Shown: positions 17,834-30,655 of the stretch, piece by piece
How positions within the stretch are numbered: position 1 is the stretch's first letter
How the letters are laid out: every line of letters starts with the position of its first letter
Assembly: GCF_009914755.1 (NCBI RefSeq)
Contig: NC_060941.1
DNA: 64,000 nt
Reading direction: 5' to 3' (one strand)
From: the human T2T-CHM13v2.0 reference genome, Homo sapiens
Program-made: the position numbers and the translations under genes
The notes under the pieces: model-generated
What the model saw: only the letters and a program-made list of their open reading frames with translations
The model's database searches: none
What the model was told of the DNA's origin: nothing

Positions 17834-17918
17834 CTAGCAAATCCACCTTTTTCGCCTTTAAGAATACGTTTTCATTGAATTCCTATTTGTCCAAAGATAC
17901 TAAGTATGCCCGGTGGAC
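17834..17918 (-). pseudogene. Fossil collagen exon
   Basis: CCCTAAT branch site, TGTCTCTTAG acceptor, GTAAGT donor; phase-1 start; (G)PP GIL SIF GQI GIQ *KR ILK GEK GGF. Confidence 0.75.
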
Positions 17919-19396: not shown

Positions 19397-19660
<264 letters not shown>

Positions 19661-20319
19661 TGAGCCACCATGCCCGACCCAAAATACTTTTTTTAAAGGT
19701 ATCACAGCTCCAGGAAATAGAGCAGTAAATTGATCTGTCCTTCAGATCACCAGGACTTTCATAGGCTAAATATCTTCACAACAGACCTCCAAAACCTTCA
19801 AGGTCAGAACTGAACACACGGTGGCGAGAGGAACTGTCTTCACAGCAGCTCTGCTTCCTCGGAGACGGCCAGAGGGAAAGGCCGTTGGCCAGTGCCAGTA
19901 CTTCGCCCAAGGGAGTACCTGCTCACATTAACCCAGCCCAAGAAGTTCCTTTGGCCAAGACGCACACACACACACCACTGTCCGGTTTTCTATTTCCTTC
20001 CAGTGTAACGACAACCACAAGCTATCAGCACTTCACTATTTGCTGTCCCCTCAGCGGGATCGGGATGCAGCTACGCAGCGGGCCCCTGGCGAGCCGCGGT
20101 GTCAGGGCCCTTTTCTCCTCTTCCCACCGTGGGAAGCGAATTCAGTGGCGTCAAGGGCCAAGAGCCAGACCTGAGTTTGTCTCTCACCCCCCGATGCTCG
20201 TCTCCCTTTTCTCACTGCCTTCCGCCCCCTCTGATCTCGACTTCTCGCAACCTATCCAGGTCCTCTCTGGGCCTCTGCCCTGAGTCAGCCCCGAATCAGA
20301 CGGGCTTGACTCGCTGAAA

Positions 20320-20373
20320 GAATTCCCCTTTGAGAGGAGGCAGATTCCCCTCTACATAGACGACACCCTGACG
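20320..20373 (+). repeat. 54-nt direct copy of the 3' part of GGNBP2 exon 2 (21517-21570)
   Basis: 52 of 54 nt identical by direct comparison. Confidence 0.97.
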
Positions 20374-20679
20374 TCGAGGGGCTTGCCCCTCGTCCGTGGG
20401 GAAGCCTTCCCGGCCCGCGGCTGGGGCCTGAGGTTGGGCCGATCACCCCTCCTACCAGTCCTAGTTCGGGTCTAGCGGAATGGCTGGGCTCCGAGAAGGG
20501 CGCCGGGCCCACGGGCGGGACGGCCAGGGCGGCCCCGCACCCTCTGGGCGCAAATTTCTCCAGCGGGGTCCCCAGCGCGGCCAGCCCCAGTCTCGCGAGA
20601 GGACGTGGGTCCCGCCCGGCGCCCGACCCCGCCCGGCCCCACCTTCCCCTCGTCCCCCGCCCTCCTTCTTCCACTCCCC

Positions 20680-20850
20680 GCGGCGCGAGCGGCTGACTGC
20701 CCGTAGAGGAAACGACATTCGGAGCTGCGCTCCCGCCCACGCCGGCCCTGACGCGGGCCTCGTCAGCCAGTAACAGGGAGCAGAGGTGGGAGTTAGCGAG
20801 GCGACCACGAAAACGGTGAAGGTCGGAACCGACAGCCTCCTCCGAGAAGG
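20680..20850 (+). other. GGNBP2: GGNBP2 non-coding exon 1 (5' limit uncertain)
   Basis: Donor AGG/GTGAGG at 20851 downstream of GC boxes. Confidence 0.65.
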
Positions 20851-21381
20851 GTGAGGAAAGGGTCTGAGCCTCCCCGTTCCCTGGACTCCGCAGAGCCGCT
20901 GCGGGGTCGATCCCTCCCAGGGGCGGGGTCGCGCTGGGCAACTGCAGTCCTGGGGCCGACTGGGCGGGGTGCGCCCAGAAGCGGGGAGAAGGGGTCAGTT
21001 GGGGGCAGAGGGCACCCGGGCGGCGGGCGGCGGGGAACAGGCTGCGGGGCCCAGGCCAGGGGTGGGGTCCTGGGGCCGGGACTCCTGCAGCGGGCGGGGA
21101 AGCCCCCGGCAGGCCGGTCCCTTCCGCCTCTCCTTTGGACCCTGACTGGAGGCCGGCGGGCGGGCGGGCGGGCGGGAGAGAGGGAGGGAGCGCGGCGCGA
21201 GGGGGGCGGGTCCCGGCGGCGCTGGGCGCTGATTGGCTGAGCGTGTGTGGAATCGGGTGATGGGAAACGCAGCCCGGCTCTCCCGTACCCTCCCGCTCCG
21301 CTCCCTGCCCCCCGTGGCGAATGTGCTGCGCAGCGGCGGGTGCTTACGCTCGCGGGGTTTGGCTGTTGCAGGCAGGAGCTG

Positions 21382-21446
21382 GGAGGAGGCGGCAGCGGCG
21401 GCGGCAGAAACAGCAGCGGCGGCGGCGGCGGCAGCTGGGAGGAGGT
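21382..21446 (+). repeat. Interrupted (GGC)n / (GCA)n tract in the GGNBP2 5'UTR
   Basis: ggaggaggcggcagcggcggcggcagaaacagcagcggcggcggcggcggcagc. Confidence 0.85.
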
Positions 21447-21477
21447 GGTGACGGTGGCAACGGCAGCGTCGGGGACG

Positions 21478-21570
21478 ATGGCGCGACTCGTGGCAGTGTG
21501 CAGGGACGGGGAGGAGGAGTTCCCCTTCGAGAGGAGGCAGATTCCCCTCTACATAGACGACACCCTGACG
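21478..21570 (+). CDS. GGNBP2: GGNBP2 first coding exon (exon 21372-21570)
   Basis: ACG-ATG-G Kozak context; MARLVAVCRDGEEEFPFERRQIPLYIDDTLT; donor GTGAGC; TTGCAG acceptor at 21371. Confidence 0.93.
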
Positions 21571-24367
21571 GTGAGCGGGCCGGGCCGGGCTGGGCCCGCC
21601 GCTCCCCTGGCAGCTGTTTCCCCTCCTCCCCCTCCCCCAGGCCGAGCGCTGCGCACTGGAGAAAGAGTGTGTTGCAACTCCTAGGCGAGGCCTTCTCTTC
21701 AGCAGGCCCCACAAACTCGCCTTTGCAGTGGGTGGCTCGGTAACCTCTGTCGGCCCCAAGCCCAGAGCTCCGTACGCACTCCCTCTCTCCAGATTTTCCT
21801 TCTTTTGGAACCTTATTCCTTGACCCTTTCCCTTTAGGAGACGCTGCTTTTGCCAAAGCACACATCTCAGAGAGGGGTTGAAGGATCTTGGGCGTTTAGG
21901 GCCTACCCCATACAGAAACCACCTACCCTCGGGGAGGCTTAATTACCTGGTAATGTCGCAGCTGCACTGCTACCTGTGTATTTTCTGTTTTAATACTGGT
22001 AGCTCTCACCACATAAGCTTAATTACTGGGGGCAGAGTGACATGCTCGTGCACAGTCAAGATTCCACTAAAATGGTTTGATTTCGTTGTAAATAGTCTCG
22101 TATTGCCTAATGCATTAAAACTCTTGAAATGATTGTATTGCTAGGCCCTTTCTTCAAAACGGGCTTTCTTCGCATTATTTAGTTTACAGGTGGACTTTTT
22201 TTTTTTTAAAGGAAGCCAAATTATTGAATGTGTAAGAGTACTATAAAAAGCTGATTGCTCATCTTGAGTGTCAAGACCCAGTTCCGGGTACTTTATTCTT
22301 TAGATTTGGTAGTGTAGCATTATCGACCCTCTGCCCTATGTTGCTGTACTGTTTCCTTTAAAAGGAAATGGCTGAAATTTGAATTGAATCTGAACAGGAA
22401 ATGAGTGCAGTTGCTTGCCACTTAAGAAATGAAATTAACCTTTTCCGAATATCTTTTGAAATCTGCGTTTTGATGATGCTGAAGCTTTGGATTATACATT
22501 TGCTTATTTCGATAAGGTGCACCTAAGTCTCTTCATCTCATCAGTATTCTTTTGCTATCAAAGGCAGTTGATCAGTTTTGTTCCTCAATATTTTTTTTTG
22601 CAAATATCTACCGAAGTTTTTTCAAATTTTATGTAAAATGCAAGTCATTGTAGAGATGCCAGTCTATGCCTTTATGCTTGCCAGTCTCAATTAAGACTTG
22701 ATTGAGCTGCAGTACTTTAAAAAGGATTAGAAGAGCTATTGAATGACTTAATTTATTAGAAGTTTTTAAGTGACAGCATTTCTAATTATTCAAGTGCATT
22801 TATTTTTCATGAAAAAAGGTAGAATGATTTGTTCTGACATAAAGTAAATAGTGTTGATGCATTAGAAATTGTGTGTCTTGATTATGATTTCTGTACTTTT
22901 TGCATTAGAAGTATAATGGACTTGTATTTTTAAATAGTTGAAACTAGCACTGTGATCATATTAAATAATGCATTTCTCAGTTTGGACTTCAGATAGGGAT
23001 TCATTTGTTGATATTTTCTTTCTTCTCTCCCCTGCTAACATAAACACTTTTCTGAAGCATATAGTTATGATATCAGCCTTTAAGGTTTATTGTCCCACAA
23101 TGGCTGTGGAGTTAAAAAAAAAAATTCAGTGAGTTTGGATATAAGATTATTATTTAATGAATAATCATAACATAGGAAAACATATCAAAACATAGGGAAA
23201 ACCAACATAAATAGTCTTCAAAAGACACTAGTTCTTGGTATATTCACATAACCACCTTTGTGAATGCAGCACATTAATACATCTGTCATATAGCACTTTA
23301 AAATGGCCAACTTTTTAAGTGCTTTTATACTGTATTCTCTCCACAATGATGTGACTTTCCAAAATTTTCCACTGAAAAAGATGTAACCTTGCAATGTGGT
23401 TTAGTATGGAACTTACTTTGCACTGTATCTGGCGGTTGAATTTTGCTTTTATTGTACTGTGGACTTGTGACTAAGGCAAATAAAACTTAAGCTCACTTAA
23501 TTTAAATATCTCAAAATAACATTTAGGAAAAGGTGCAGTTTTTCTTTGCTTCAGAATGGGTTTTTATCACAAAGGAATGAGTGAGACATTTATTTGTGCT
23601 GGGACTTCTGCACAGTCATTGAATGCTGTGAGTGAATGTTAGTGAAAATTCTTGTCAAGGGAAACAAGTTTCTTTCAGGATATTCTACCAAATACTACTG
23701 AAAGGGAGAATGCAGAGCAAAACACCTGTTGGGAGAGAAGGGGAAAAGGGAAGAGGGAAGGAAGATGCCCCTATCAGAGTTTTATGCTCTGCATTGTTCC
23801 TTTGATAGATGGCAGTGGATGCCTGAAGTTAACCTTAGGTTTTGTCTTTGTCCCTAGGGTCTGTAGGTAATGCACTGAGGAAACATTGTTTGAACTTATT
23901 TCAAATAGTAGTCTTAGGATTTTGATAGTAGCTAAATGTTGCAATATAGTTACAATGTTTACAGGCAGTTGCAGACTTTATCATTTTAGTTGGGATGCTG
24001 AAACTTTACCCTTAGTTAAACTGGCAGTTGTAATTTGGACTTGTAAAATGAAATTAACAAACTTGTATGTAAAGAAGTAGCCTTAGGCTGGGTTTGGTGG
24101 CTCACGCTTGTAATCCCAGCACTTTGGGAGGCTGAGGCAGGTGGATTACTGGAGGTCAGGAATTCAAGACCAGCCTGGCCAACATGGCAAAACCCCGTCT
24201 CTACTAAAAATACAAAAATTAGCCAGACATAGTGGTGGGTGCCTGTAATCCCAGCTACTCAGGAGGCTGAGGCAGGAGAATCCTATGAACCCGGGAGGTG
24301 GAGGTTGCGGTGAGCCGAGATCGCACCACTGCACTCCAGCCTGGGCAACAAGAGCAAGACTCTGTCT

Positions 24368-30574: not shown

Positions 30575-30655
30575 ATGGTGATGGAATTTCCTGATAATGT
30601 GTTAAATCTCGATGGACATCAGAATAATGGTGCACAGCTAAAGCAGTTCATTCAG
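30575..30655 (+). CDS. GGNBP2: GGNBP2 coding exon
   Basis: 81 nt, MVMEFPDNVLNLDGHQNNGAQLKQFIQ, AG/GT, phase 0-0. Confidence 0.92.

What the first reader, a model, noticed from the sequence alone, without database searches (positions are those of the whole stretch)
20320..21570. 54-nt copy of GGNBP2 exon 2 upstream of its own promoter, differing only at two synonymous positions
20320-20373 matches 21517-21570 at 52/54 nt (GAG to GAA, TTC to TTT), so both read EFPFERRQIPLYIDDTLT. Near-identity stops exactly at the exon end (ACG/GTGAGC versus ACG/TCGAGG); flanks are only faintly similar. The copy has no in-frame ATG (TGA at 20281) and no donor. A divergent transcript would carry a near-perfect antisense to the exon-2 sequence abutting its 5' splice site and could influence splicing or translation. 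Alternatives are a duplicated transcription-factor element (the copy ends in CRE-like TGACGTC), gene conversion, or a recent neutral templated insertion. Two synonymous changes alone are too few to show selection.
Basis: partly seen in the sequence, partly recalled or inferred. Interest (0 to 1): 0.7.

Follow-up and report, generated by a model that had tools for sequence, protein, structure and literature searches.

The report
Repair-patch copy of GGNBP2 exon fragment
A 51-54 base piece of the first coding exon of GGNBP2 has been copied 1.2 kb upstream into the promoter it shares with a long MYO19 transcript, most likely as an ordinary scar of DNA-break repair with no role of its own.

Summary
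Window 20320-20373 matches 21517-21570 (the last 54 nt of GGNBP2 exon 2) at 52/54, with a core at 20323-20373 of 50/51. None of 100 shuffles of the window gave a match. The T2T genome search found only these two copies. Both read EFPFERRQIPLYIDDTLT. Identity stops at the last exon base, and the flanks are not significantly alike.

The copy does not continue into exon 3. It has no poly(A), no ATG and no splice donor. One base after its right end lies a perfect 8-bp palindromic hairpin.

Size, spacing, orientation and uniqueness fit the published class of repair-mediated duplications ("doublets"; Pace et al. 2009: 824 human cases within 5 kb, spacing peak about 1,200 bp, 8 donors holding exon sequence). 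A second dispersed doublet turned up in the 264 kb I scanned.

By the hub annotation, MYO19 transcription starting at 20568 (minus strand) runs through the copy. An antisense RNA therefore exists at least as pre-mRNA, and the predicted duplex is strong (-110 kcal/mol). Nothing shows that it acts.

Age (roughly 2-60 Myr from one or two differences) and phylogenetic spread could not be tested, because no other vertebrate genome was on hand. Verdict: a new member of a known kind, of low to moderate interest.

The parts
20320..20373 (+). Acceptor copy: a 54-nt (core 20323-20373, 51 nt) duplicate of the 3' end of GGNBP2 exon 2. It lies about 300 nt upstream of the GGNBP2 TSS, inside the 5' edge of the CpG island.
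   Evidence: 52/54; 50/51. (only two copies in the genome). (CpG o/e 0.6-0.7 around it).
21517..21570 (+). Donor: the last 54 nt of GGNBP2 exon 2 (codons 14-31 of the CDS that starts at 21478), followed by the donor ACG|GTGAGC.
   Evidence: searches (translation MARLVAVCRDGEEEFPFERRQIPLYIDDTLT; donor score 8.6), hub annotation.
20375..20392 (.). Perfect palindromic hairpin (8-bp stem CGAGGGGC, 2-nt loop), one base after the right end of the copy. It is a candidate snap-back filler or a break-prone palindrome.
   Evidence: There are 26 such hairpins in 64 kb and 2 in 20000-21800. The chance of one within 3 nt of a given junction is about 0.006-0.016 (a post hoc estimate).
20369..20375 (.). TGACGTC heptamer spanning the right junction (TGACG from the copy, TC from the flank). 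It is CRE-like by the recalled consensus TGACGTCA.
   Evidence: sequence reading. No binding evidence.
20188..20568 (-). 5' region of the MYO19 long transcripts (TSS 20568 by the hub's gene span), which reads through the copy in antisense. The exon's low end is unknown. Candidate donors are at 20456 (copy intronic) and at 20188 or 19927 (copy exonic).
   Evidence: Hub annotation. (minus-strand sequence). (donor scores 6.5, 7.6, 7.3 with a recalled weight matrix). (internal exon 17834-17918 has an AG acceptor and a TAG|GTAAGT donor).
20672..20850 (+). GGNBP2 exon 1 (non-coding). With the minus-strand TSS at 20568 it forms a bidirectional CpG-island promoter with about 100 nt between the starts.
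   Evidence: Hub annotation. (GC 0.72-0.79, CpG o/e about 1).

Best explanation
A chromosome break in the upstream edge of the GGNBP2/MYO19 CpG-island promoter was mended by copying a short stretch of nearby DNA. The broken end invaded the same chromosome 1.2 kb away, inside GGNBP2 exon 2, copied 51-54 nt, let go, and was joined to the other end. This is synthesis-dependent strand annealing or alternative end joining, which produces 'repair-mediated duplications' or 'doublets'. The exon is the source and the upstream copy is a functionless scar. The scar is transcribed only because it lies in the path of the minus-strand MYO19-long / promoter-upstream transcript. Shown here: the repeat, its uniqueness, its sharp ends, and the absence of retrotransposition marks and of coding or splicing signals. 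Inferred: the repair mechanism, the direction of copying and the neutrality.
For: 1. There are two copies only, in direct orientation and 1,197 bp apart. Pace et al. 2009 (PMC2671141; abstract and sections 6, 7, 8, 10 read) describe 824 human duplications of at least 50 bp with the donor within 5 kb. They report a spacing peak near 1,200 bp, no poly(A), microhomology, filler or deletions at the junctions, and roughly neutral divergence. Eight of the 824 donors held exon sequence (4 partial exon/intron, 2 full exon, 2 intron/full exon/intron).
2. The copy has no poly(A)/T, no target-site duplication and no continuation into exon 3, so it is not an L1-mediated or processed-mRNA copy.
3. The left junction shares GA (20320-20321) with the donor, which is possible microhomology. 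At the right junction a perfect 8-bp hairpin starts one base after the copy. This is the kind of structure made by snap-back synthesis in end joining (PMC4912351, PMC2943611, PMC5728401; search listing and start of abstracts only).
4. Direction of copying: the exon copy sits in an ORF with its ATG 39 nt upstream and a scored donor. The upstream copy has a stop 39 nt upstream, no ATG and no GT.
5. One or two transition differences, one of them CpG to TpG in the copy, give 2-3.7% divergence. At the rate used by Pace et al. this is about 9-17 Myr, with a 95% range of 0.2-61 Myr.
6. Base rate: in 264 kb of contiguous sequence (the window plus 200 kb) a self-comparison found 2 dispersed local two-copy pairs, this one and an 80-nt pair 891 nt apart. 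Such pairs are therefore not rare.
Against: The right end falls exactly on the last exon base. On a DNA template that is a coincidence of roughly 1-3% (my estimate, post hoc). The mismatch density of 2/54 in the exon part against 3/8 beyond it differs (Fisher p = 0.013), which argues that the copy really ends there. Both differences are synonymous (chance 0.047 for any substitution, 0.11 for transitions), which is weakly suggestive of constraint but not significant. At 51-54 nt the copy is at the short end of the Pace et al. class (mean 162 bp). Its acceptor is not in a recognisable transposable element, so it cannot be in their catalogue. The empty ancestral site was not available, so microhomology, filler and deletion cannot be defined properly. 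Neutrality is assumed, not tested.
Confidence: 0.5

Rival explanations
1. The scar has the same standing, but the template was RNA rather than DNA. The break was patched from nascent GGNBP2 RNA made 1.2 kb away, specifically a molecule ending at the 5' splice site of exon 2 (the free 5'-exon intermediate of splicing, or a cDNA primed at that end). This would be a class-2 templated sequence insertion.
For: Near-identity stops exactly at the last exon base, and the next 8 nt are much less alike (2/54 against 3/8, p = 0.013). The donor is transcribed and close by. Onozawa and Aplan 2016 (PMC5110952; abstract and sections 5, 8, 9 read) report that break-site insertions are enriched for transcribed sequence, are reduced more than three-fold by reverse-transcriptase inhibitors, and show no TSD or poly(A) but do show end-joining features.
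Against: Those insertions come mainly from distant loci, whereas proximal ones fit DNA strand invasion (39 of 39 proximal junctions inspected had repair hallmarks and none had poly(A)). There is no exon 3 sequence, so an ordinary spliced mRNA was not the template. The 5'-exon intermediate is short-lived and held in the spliceosome. A single boundary coincidence is a weak basis.
Confidence: 0.22
2. The copy works as a regulatory antisense. The minus-strand MYO19-long or promoter-upstream RNA carries 54 nt complementary to the GGNBP2 exon 2 sequence abutting its 5' splice site. It pairs with GGNBP2 pre-mRNA made from the same promoter and alters its splicing, editing or translation.
For: The hub annotation places a minus-strand TSS at 20568, so the copy lies at about +196 to +249 of that transcript. 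Exon 17834-17918 is a well-formed internal exon, so the transcript is spliced and processed. The predicted duplex is -110.1 kcal/mol with one G.U and one A.C, against -23.6 (sd 5.0) for 200 shuffles. Two of the three best candidate donors would leave the copy in the mature first exon.
Against: There is no expression, duplex or perturbation evidence. The third candidate donor (20456) would make the copy intronic. No Rfam family matches here. The two synonymous differences do not show constraint. Dispersed short duplications arise often without function. Pace et al. found no constraint on their two fully duplicated exons, one of which is even transcribed in antisense.
Confidence: 0.06
3. The copy was co-opted as a promoter element. 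It brought transcription-factor sites from the promoter-proximal exon, or made a new CRE-like TGACGTC at the junction, and now tunes the bidirectional promoter.
For: The heptamer at 20369-20375 is formed only at the junction. The copy lies inside the CpG island about 200-350 nt from both starts (hub). Pace et al. report 21 duplicated predicted TF sites among 824 events.
Against: This is motif resemblance only, and the CRE consensus is recalled rather than tested. No binding data were available. A 7-mer match is weak.
Confidence: 0.07
4. It is the remnant of an old, longer tandem duplication of the exon 2 region. Its core was kept alike by selection or gene conversion while the flanks decayed.
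For: The flanks are slightly above background in register (left 40 nt 15/40, right 40 nt 17/40; null fractions 0.067 and 0.043).
Against: The drop from 50/51 to background is abrupt on both sides. A gapped local alignment of 400-nt flanks recovers only the 62-nt core. Gene conversion needs flanking homology, and there is none. The copy has no ATG, no donor and an upstream stop, so no coding selection can act on it.
Confidence: 0.04
5. It is a chance match or an assembly artefact.
For: None.
Against: None of 100 shuffles gave even one match to the 51-nt pattern. The blastn E-value is 1e-21 within the window. The flanks on both sides are unique, ordinary sequence.
Confidence: 0.01

Closest known systems
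[quoted passage not shown]
   Same: A single extra copy of unique DNA with the donor on the same chromosome within 5 kb. The spacing here is 1,197 bp, and their histogram peaks near 1,200 bp. There is no poly(A) or TSD, there are possible microhomology and filler-like features at the junctions, and the divergence is low and near-neutral. Donors can include partial exons (8 of 824).
   Different: It is shorter than their typical case (51-54 nt against a mean of 162 bp, with a cut-off of 50 bp). The acceptor lies in a CpG-island promoter rather than inside a transposable element, so their pipeline could not have found it. The copy ends exactly at an exon end. The empty site has not been examined.
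'Doublets': short paired local duplications (Thomas et al. 2004, PNAS; known to me from Pace et al.'s description and from recall; the paper itself is not held)
   Same: A short (under 100 bp), nearly identical pair lying close together.
   Different: I could not read the paper, so its exact definitions are untested here. The exon origin is a special case.
Class 2 templated sequence insertions / TSIPs (Onozawa and Aplan 2016, PMC5110952)
   Same: A patch at a break from a transcribed template, with no TSD and no poly(A), and with end-joining features. It would explain an end at an RNA processing site.
   Different: Their templates are mostly distant or on other chromosomes, and the insertions are polymorphic in people. 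Here the template is 1.2 kb away, and polymorphism is untested.
Natural antisense / promoter-upstream transcripts pairing with a neighbouring gene's mRNA
   Same: A divergent transcript carries sequence complementary to the neighbour's exon.
   Different: In ordinary cis-antisense pairs the complementarity comes from overlapping transcription of the same DNA. Here it would come from a displaced copy and act in trans over 1.2 kb. No function has been shown.

Membership tests
Repair-mediated duplication (Pace et al. 2009) | Inserted sequence of at least 50 bp found at only one other place in the genome | tested here: met
   The copy is 51-54 nt. The whole-genome search returns 2 places. Its length is borderline.
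Repair-mediated duplication (Pace et al. 2009) | Donor on the same chromosome within 5 kb, not tandem (more than 50 bp apart) | tested here: met
   Start-to-start spacing is 1,197 bp, in direct orientation.
Repair-mediated duplication (Pace et al. 2009) | No poly(A)/T tail, and no marks of retrotransposition or processed mRNA | tested here: met
   Sequence reading. There is no match to the start of exon 3.
Repair-mediated duplication (Pace et al. 2009) | Junction hallmarks: microhomology, filler, deletion relative to the empty site | tested here: inconclusive
   GA is shared at the left junction, and an 8-bp perfect hairpin starts 1 nt after the right junction. Without the ancestral empty site these features cannot be assigned.
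Repair-mediated duplication (Pace et al. 2009) | Empty orthologous site in an outgroup species | not testable with these tools
   The own genome 'has no relatives here'. No vertebrate collection was available.
Class 2 templated sequence insertion (Onozawa and Aplan) | Template is transcribed sequence; no TSD, no poly(A) signal or tract | tested here: met
   The donor is a coding exon (hub). There is no TSD or poly(A).
Class 2 templated sequence insertion (Onozawa and Aplan) | Template from a distant region; insertion polymorphic among people | tested here: not met
   The template is only 1.2 kb away. Polymorphism could not be tested.
Processed retrocopy / L1-mediated class 1 insertion | Spliced exon-exon continuity, poly(A), target-site duplication | tested here: not met
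Functional alternative exon of GGNBP2 | Start codon or acceptor, open frame, 5' splice site | tested here: not met
   There is an in-frame stop at 20281, no ATG, and ACG|TCGAGG in place of a donor. It lies upstream of the annotated TSS.
Known RNA family | Match to an Rfam covariance model | tested here: not met
   the only matches in 19500-22500 are Alu-derived (19500-19678).

The most novel reading that the evidence does not exclude
The patch was copied from the free 5'-exon splicing intermediate of nascent GGNBP2 RNA, which is why it ends on the last exon base. It landed in the first exon of the divergent MYO19-long / promoter-upstream transcript. It now gives that RNA a 54-nt antisense to the GGNBP2 start-codon-proximal exon and its 5' splice site. 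The two genes of the bidirectional pair would then cross-regulate through an RNA duplex made possible by a displaced exon copy.
Probability: 0.04. Interest if true: 0.6.

Novelty: new member of a known kind. Interest (0 to 1): 0.25.

Why it matters
As a repair scar it is one more example of a documented process, and of little consequence. It is a slightly unusual example for three reasons. The donor is a coding exon, which held for about 1% of donors in Pace et al.. The copy ends precisely at a splice site. It also lies in the transcribed 5' region of the neighbouring gene's long isoform, in antisense.

If comparative data showed that exon-derived local duplications tend to end at splice sites, that would be germline evidence for RNA-templated break repair in primates. 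GGNBP2 lies in the 17q12 deletion interval. It is also discussed as an ALS risk gene acting through raised expression (listing and start of abstracts only). Any element that tunes its expression would therefore be worth knowing, but nothing here shows that this one does.

Tried and rejected
- Flank homology: an in-register scan and a gapped local alignment found only the 62-nt core. I rejected an old long duplication.
- Spliced-mRNA origin: the start of exon 3 (30575) does not follow the copy. Rejected.
- Further templated pieces around the acceptor: blastn-short of 20200-20500 against the window gave only chance matches of 10-14 nt, besides the core and the local palindrome.
- Rfam scan of 19500-22500: nothing at the copy, only Alu-derived hits upstream.
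- Transposable-element test of the acceptor flanks: both flanks are unique in the genome search. That search skips very common words, so an old degraded repeat is not excluded.
- Placing the low end of the MYO19-long first exon by donor scoring was ambiguous: 20456 scored 6.5, 20188 scored 7.6 and 19927 scored 7.3. The weight matrix was recalled from memory and is approximate.
- DNA folding of 20360-20410: the hairpin is in the minimum-energy structure, but the overall z-score is only -1.52.
- Literature: GGNBP2 with MYO19 gave 52 papers, of which 20 were listed and none concerned this feature. GGNBP2 with 'bidirectional promoter' gave 1 paper, which was irrelevant. GGNBP2 with 'exon 2', 'duplication' and 'upstream' gave 0 papers. 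I found no description in that library. Subscription journals are not covered.
Thomas et al. 2004 is not held. The supplementary tables of Pace et al., which list their 824 loci, were closed, so I could not check their catalogue directly.

Full report
**The observation**

Reading the window and the repeat finder confirm that 20320-20373 and 21517-21570 agree at 52 of 54 positions. The copies are in direct orientation, 1,197 bp apart. The differences are A for G at 20322 and T for C at 20331; the second is a CpG-to-TpG change in the upstream copy.

A 51-nt pattern covering 20323-20373 matches exactly twice in the window. None of 100 dinucleotide-preserving shuffles gave any match. blastn-short gives the core as 50/51 with E 1e-21. 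A search of the whole T2T assembly with 20300-20400 returns these two places only.

The exon segment is the end of the 31-codon first coding part of GGNBP2, MARLVAVCRDGEEEFPFERRQIPLYIDDTLT. The upstream copy reads the same 18 residues. It is preceded by an in-frame TGA at 20281, has no ATG, and runs on to a TAG at 20473. The exon ends ACG|GTGAGC and the copy ends ACG|TCGAGG.

One refinement concerns the left end. The bases before 20323 (GAA against GAG, preceded by GAAA against GGAG) may be acceptor flank with partial microhomology rather than copied sequence. In that case the copy is 51 nt with a single difference.

**The extent of the homology**

In register, identity per 20 nt falls from 18-20 inside the core to 7-9 on the left and 6-12 on the right within 10-20 nt. 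I tested the copy's flanks against all other offsets in the GC-rich 20700-22300 stretch. They are not clearly above background: left 40 nt 15/40 (fraction of null at least as high 0.067), right 8 nt 5/8 (0.055), right 40 nt 17/40 (0.043). A gapped local alignment of 400 nt around each copy returns only the 62-nt core.

Mismatch density is 2/54 in the exon part and 3/8 in the next 8 nt (Fisher p = 0.013). The copy therefore effectively ends at the exon's last base.

**What it is not**

- It is not a processed-mRNA copy. Exon 3 begins at 30575 with a sequence that does not follow the copy, and there is no poly(A)/T or target-site duplication.
- It is not an interspersed repeat. Both acceptor flanks (19950-20319 and 20374-20670) are unique in the genome search. 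In a self-comparison of the window, this is the only pair in which each copy has a single partner.
- It is not a known RNA family. The only Rfam matches in 19500-22500 are Alu-derived, at 19500-19678.
- It is not a usable exon.
- It is unlikely to be kept alike by gene conversion, since there is no flanking homology to support conversion.

**The setting**

The copy lies in the 5' edge of the CpG island. GC is 0.59-0.73 and CpG o/e is 0.6-0.7 around it, rising to about 1 at 20571-20850. By the hub annotation GGNBP2 starts at 20672 (+) and the MYO19 gene span ends at 20568 (-). This is therefore a bidirectional promoter with about 100 nt between the starts.

The MYO19 exon 17834-17918 has a pyrimidine tract with AG before it and TAG|GTAAGT after it on the minus strand. 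It is thus an internal exon fed from a first exon that begins at 20568. That transcript passes through the copy, at about +196 to +249, in antisense.

I could not find where its first exon ends. Annotated donors in the window score 2.8-12.7.

The antisense of the copy would pair with exon 2 RNA at -110.1 kcal/mol. A perfect antisense gives -118.4, and 200 shuffles give -23.6 (sd 5.0). The duplex holds one G.U and one A.C.

One base after the right end of the copy there is a perfect hairpin: an 8-bp stem (CGAGGGGC and its complement) with a 2-nt loop, at 20375-20392. It is part of the minimum-energy DNA fold of 20360-20410, although the z-score of that fold is only -1.52.

The window holds 26 such hairpins (stem at least 8, loop at most 6, at least three base types in the arm). 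Two of them lie in 20000-21800. The chance that one lies within 3 nt of a given junction is about 0.006-0.016. This estimate is post hoc, and there are two junctions.

An inverted copy of the flank right at a junction is what snap-back (in cis) templated synthesis by end-joining polymerases produces (PMC4912351, PMC2943611, PMC5728401; I saw only the search listing and the start of the abstracts). Alternatively, a pre-existing palindrome may have caused the break. Either reading points to break repair. It also explains the 5/8 resemblance to the intron as chance.

**Comparison with what is known**

Pace et al. 2009 (PMC2671141; abstract and sections 6, 7, 8 and 10 read, with passages of section 14) found 1,136 insertions of at least 50 bp of unique DNA into human transposable elements.

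- 824 had the donor within 5 kb. Of all 1,136, 753 were separated by less than 3 kb. The spacing histogram peaks near 1,200 bp, which the authors caution may be partly methodological.
- Mean length was 162 bp.
- All 39 inspected proximal junctions bore microhomology (2-9 nt), filler (1-68 nt) or deletions, and none had poly(A).
- Divergence tracked the neutral rate.
- Of the 1,136 duplicons they dated, 53 are shared with a non-primate mammal. The rest are confined to primates or to narrower primate groups.
- Donors included 4 partial exon/intron pieces, 2 full exons and 2 exons with flanking intron.
- The two fully duplicated exons showed no sign of constraint, even though one is transcribed in antisense.
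- They equate their class with the 'doublets' of Thomas et al. 2004. That paper is not held, so I know it only through their description and from recall.

The present pair meets the tested criteria: single extra copy, proximity, no retrotransposition marks. It is at the short end of the class. Because its acceptor is not in a transposable element, their method could not have listed it.

My own small base-rate check covered 264 kb of contiguous sequence (the window plus L003-L022). It found 9 two-copy pairs of at least 30 nt at 88% identity or more:

- 2 dispersed local direct pairs: this one, and an 80-nt pair 891 nt apart
- 5 HSPs from four tandem arrays
- 1 palindrome
- 1 pair 123 kb apart

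. Dispersed short duplications are thus common. What is uncommon here is the exon donor.

**Age**

Two differences in 54 nt (3.7%) or one in 51 nt (2.0%) correspond to about 17 or 9 Myr at the 2.2e-9 per site per year used by Pace et al. The Poisson 95% ranges are 2-61 and 0.2-50 Myr.

Two caveats apply. The exon copy is constrained, so only one lineage is free to change. The acceptor lies in a CpG island, where CpG decay is slow. A primate-age event is the most likely, but I could not test it, because no other vertebrate genome was available (one search states that the genome has no relatives here).

**DNA or RNA template**

The exact stop at the exon end is the one feature that the ordinary DNA strand-invasion model leaves to coincidence. 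My estimate for that coincidence is 1-3%, made post hoc.

Break-site insertions templated by RNA are documented (PMC5110952; abstract and sections 5, 8, 9 read). They are enriched for transcribed sequence, are reduced more than three-fold by reverse-transcriptase inhibitors, and have class 2 junctions without TSD or poly(A).

A template ending at the 5' splice site, such as the free 5' exon after the first step of splicing, would explain the boundary. The absence of exon 3 sequence excludes ordinary spliced mRNA running through the junction. I rate the RNA variant at about 0.2 and the DNA variant at about 0.5. The two differ in origin, not in consequence.

**Function**

Nothing found here indicates function. 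Both differences are synonymous, but that has a chance probability of 0.047 (any substitution) to 0.11 (transitions only), and the copy cannot be translated in frame from any ATG.

The antisense idea is physically possible and its precondition, a divergent transcript, is annotated. It remains untested, and I give it about 0.06. The junction heptamer TGACGTC is CRE-like only by a recalled consensus, and I give promoter co-option about 0.07.

No paper in the searchable library describes the copy.

**Verdict**

The feature is real. It is most probably a primate-age break-repair patch copied from GGNBP2 exon 2: a new member of a known kind, with two mildly unusual traits (an exon-end boundary, and antisense placement in the neighbouring gene's long transcript). 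These traits make it a reasonable test case but not a discovery. The decisive data are outgroup empty sites, stranded RNA over the copy and a deletion experiment, and they lie outside these tools.

Noticed in passing
window 20375-20392: A perfect 8-bp-stem, 2-nt-loop palindrome starts one base after the right end of the exon copy. It may be snap-back filler or a break-prone palindrome. It is one of only 2 such hairpins in 20000-21800.
   Followed up: partly
window 20120-20136: This is the second perfect hairpin of the CpG-island edge (8-bp stem CTTCCCAC, 1-nt loop). A similar 12-13-mer (CCGTGGGAAGC-like) recurs at about 20394-20406, on the other side of the copy. This is probably chance.
   Followed up: no
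L011:3205-3284 and L011:4096-4175 (window-extended coordinates 147205-147284 and 148096-148175): A second dispersed direct 'doublet': 80 nt at 93.75% identity, 891 nt apart. Each copy has no other partner in the 264 kb scanned. By the hub's table it lies within the span of lncRNA LOC105371750.
   Followed up: no
L008:175-270, L010:2173-2276, L014:1637-1745, L019:7100-7170: Short tandem duplications (units of 32, 52, about 54 and about 34 nt, in 2-3 copies at 92-98% identity) turned up in the same self-comparison.
   Followed up: no
L010:4940-5036: A 97-nt near-perfect palindrome (about 90% self-complementary).
   Followed up: no
window 20352-20357 (minus strand): The antisense of the copy holds ATG followed directly by TAG. 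If the copy is exonic in the MYO19 long transcripts, this would be a start-stop mini-uORF in their 5' UTR.
   Followed up: no
window 21389-21434: A GGC/GCG triplet-rich run (GCGGCGGCGGC...) lies in the GGNBP2 5' UTR part of exon 2, just upstream of the ATG at 21478. It was reported as direct-repeat family D5.
   Followed up: no
window 19500-19700: There are Alu-derived matches (Metazoa_SRP below its gathering score, and mir-1268/mir-1285-like) about 600 nt upstream of the copy. They mark the distal limit of the unique promoter-flank sequence.
   Followed up: no
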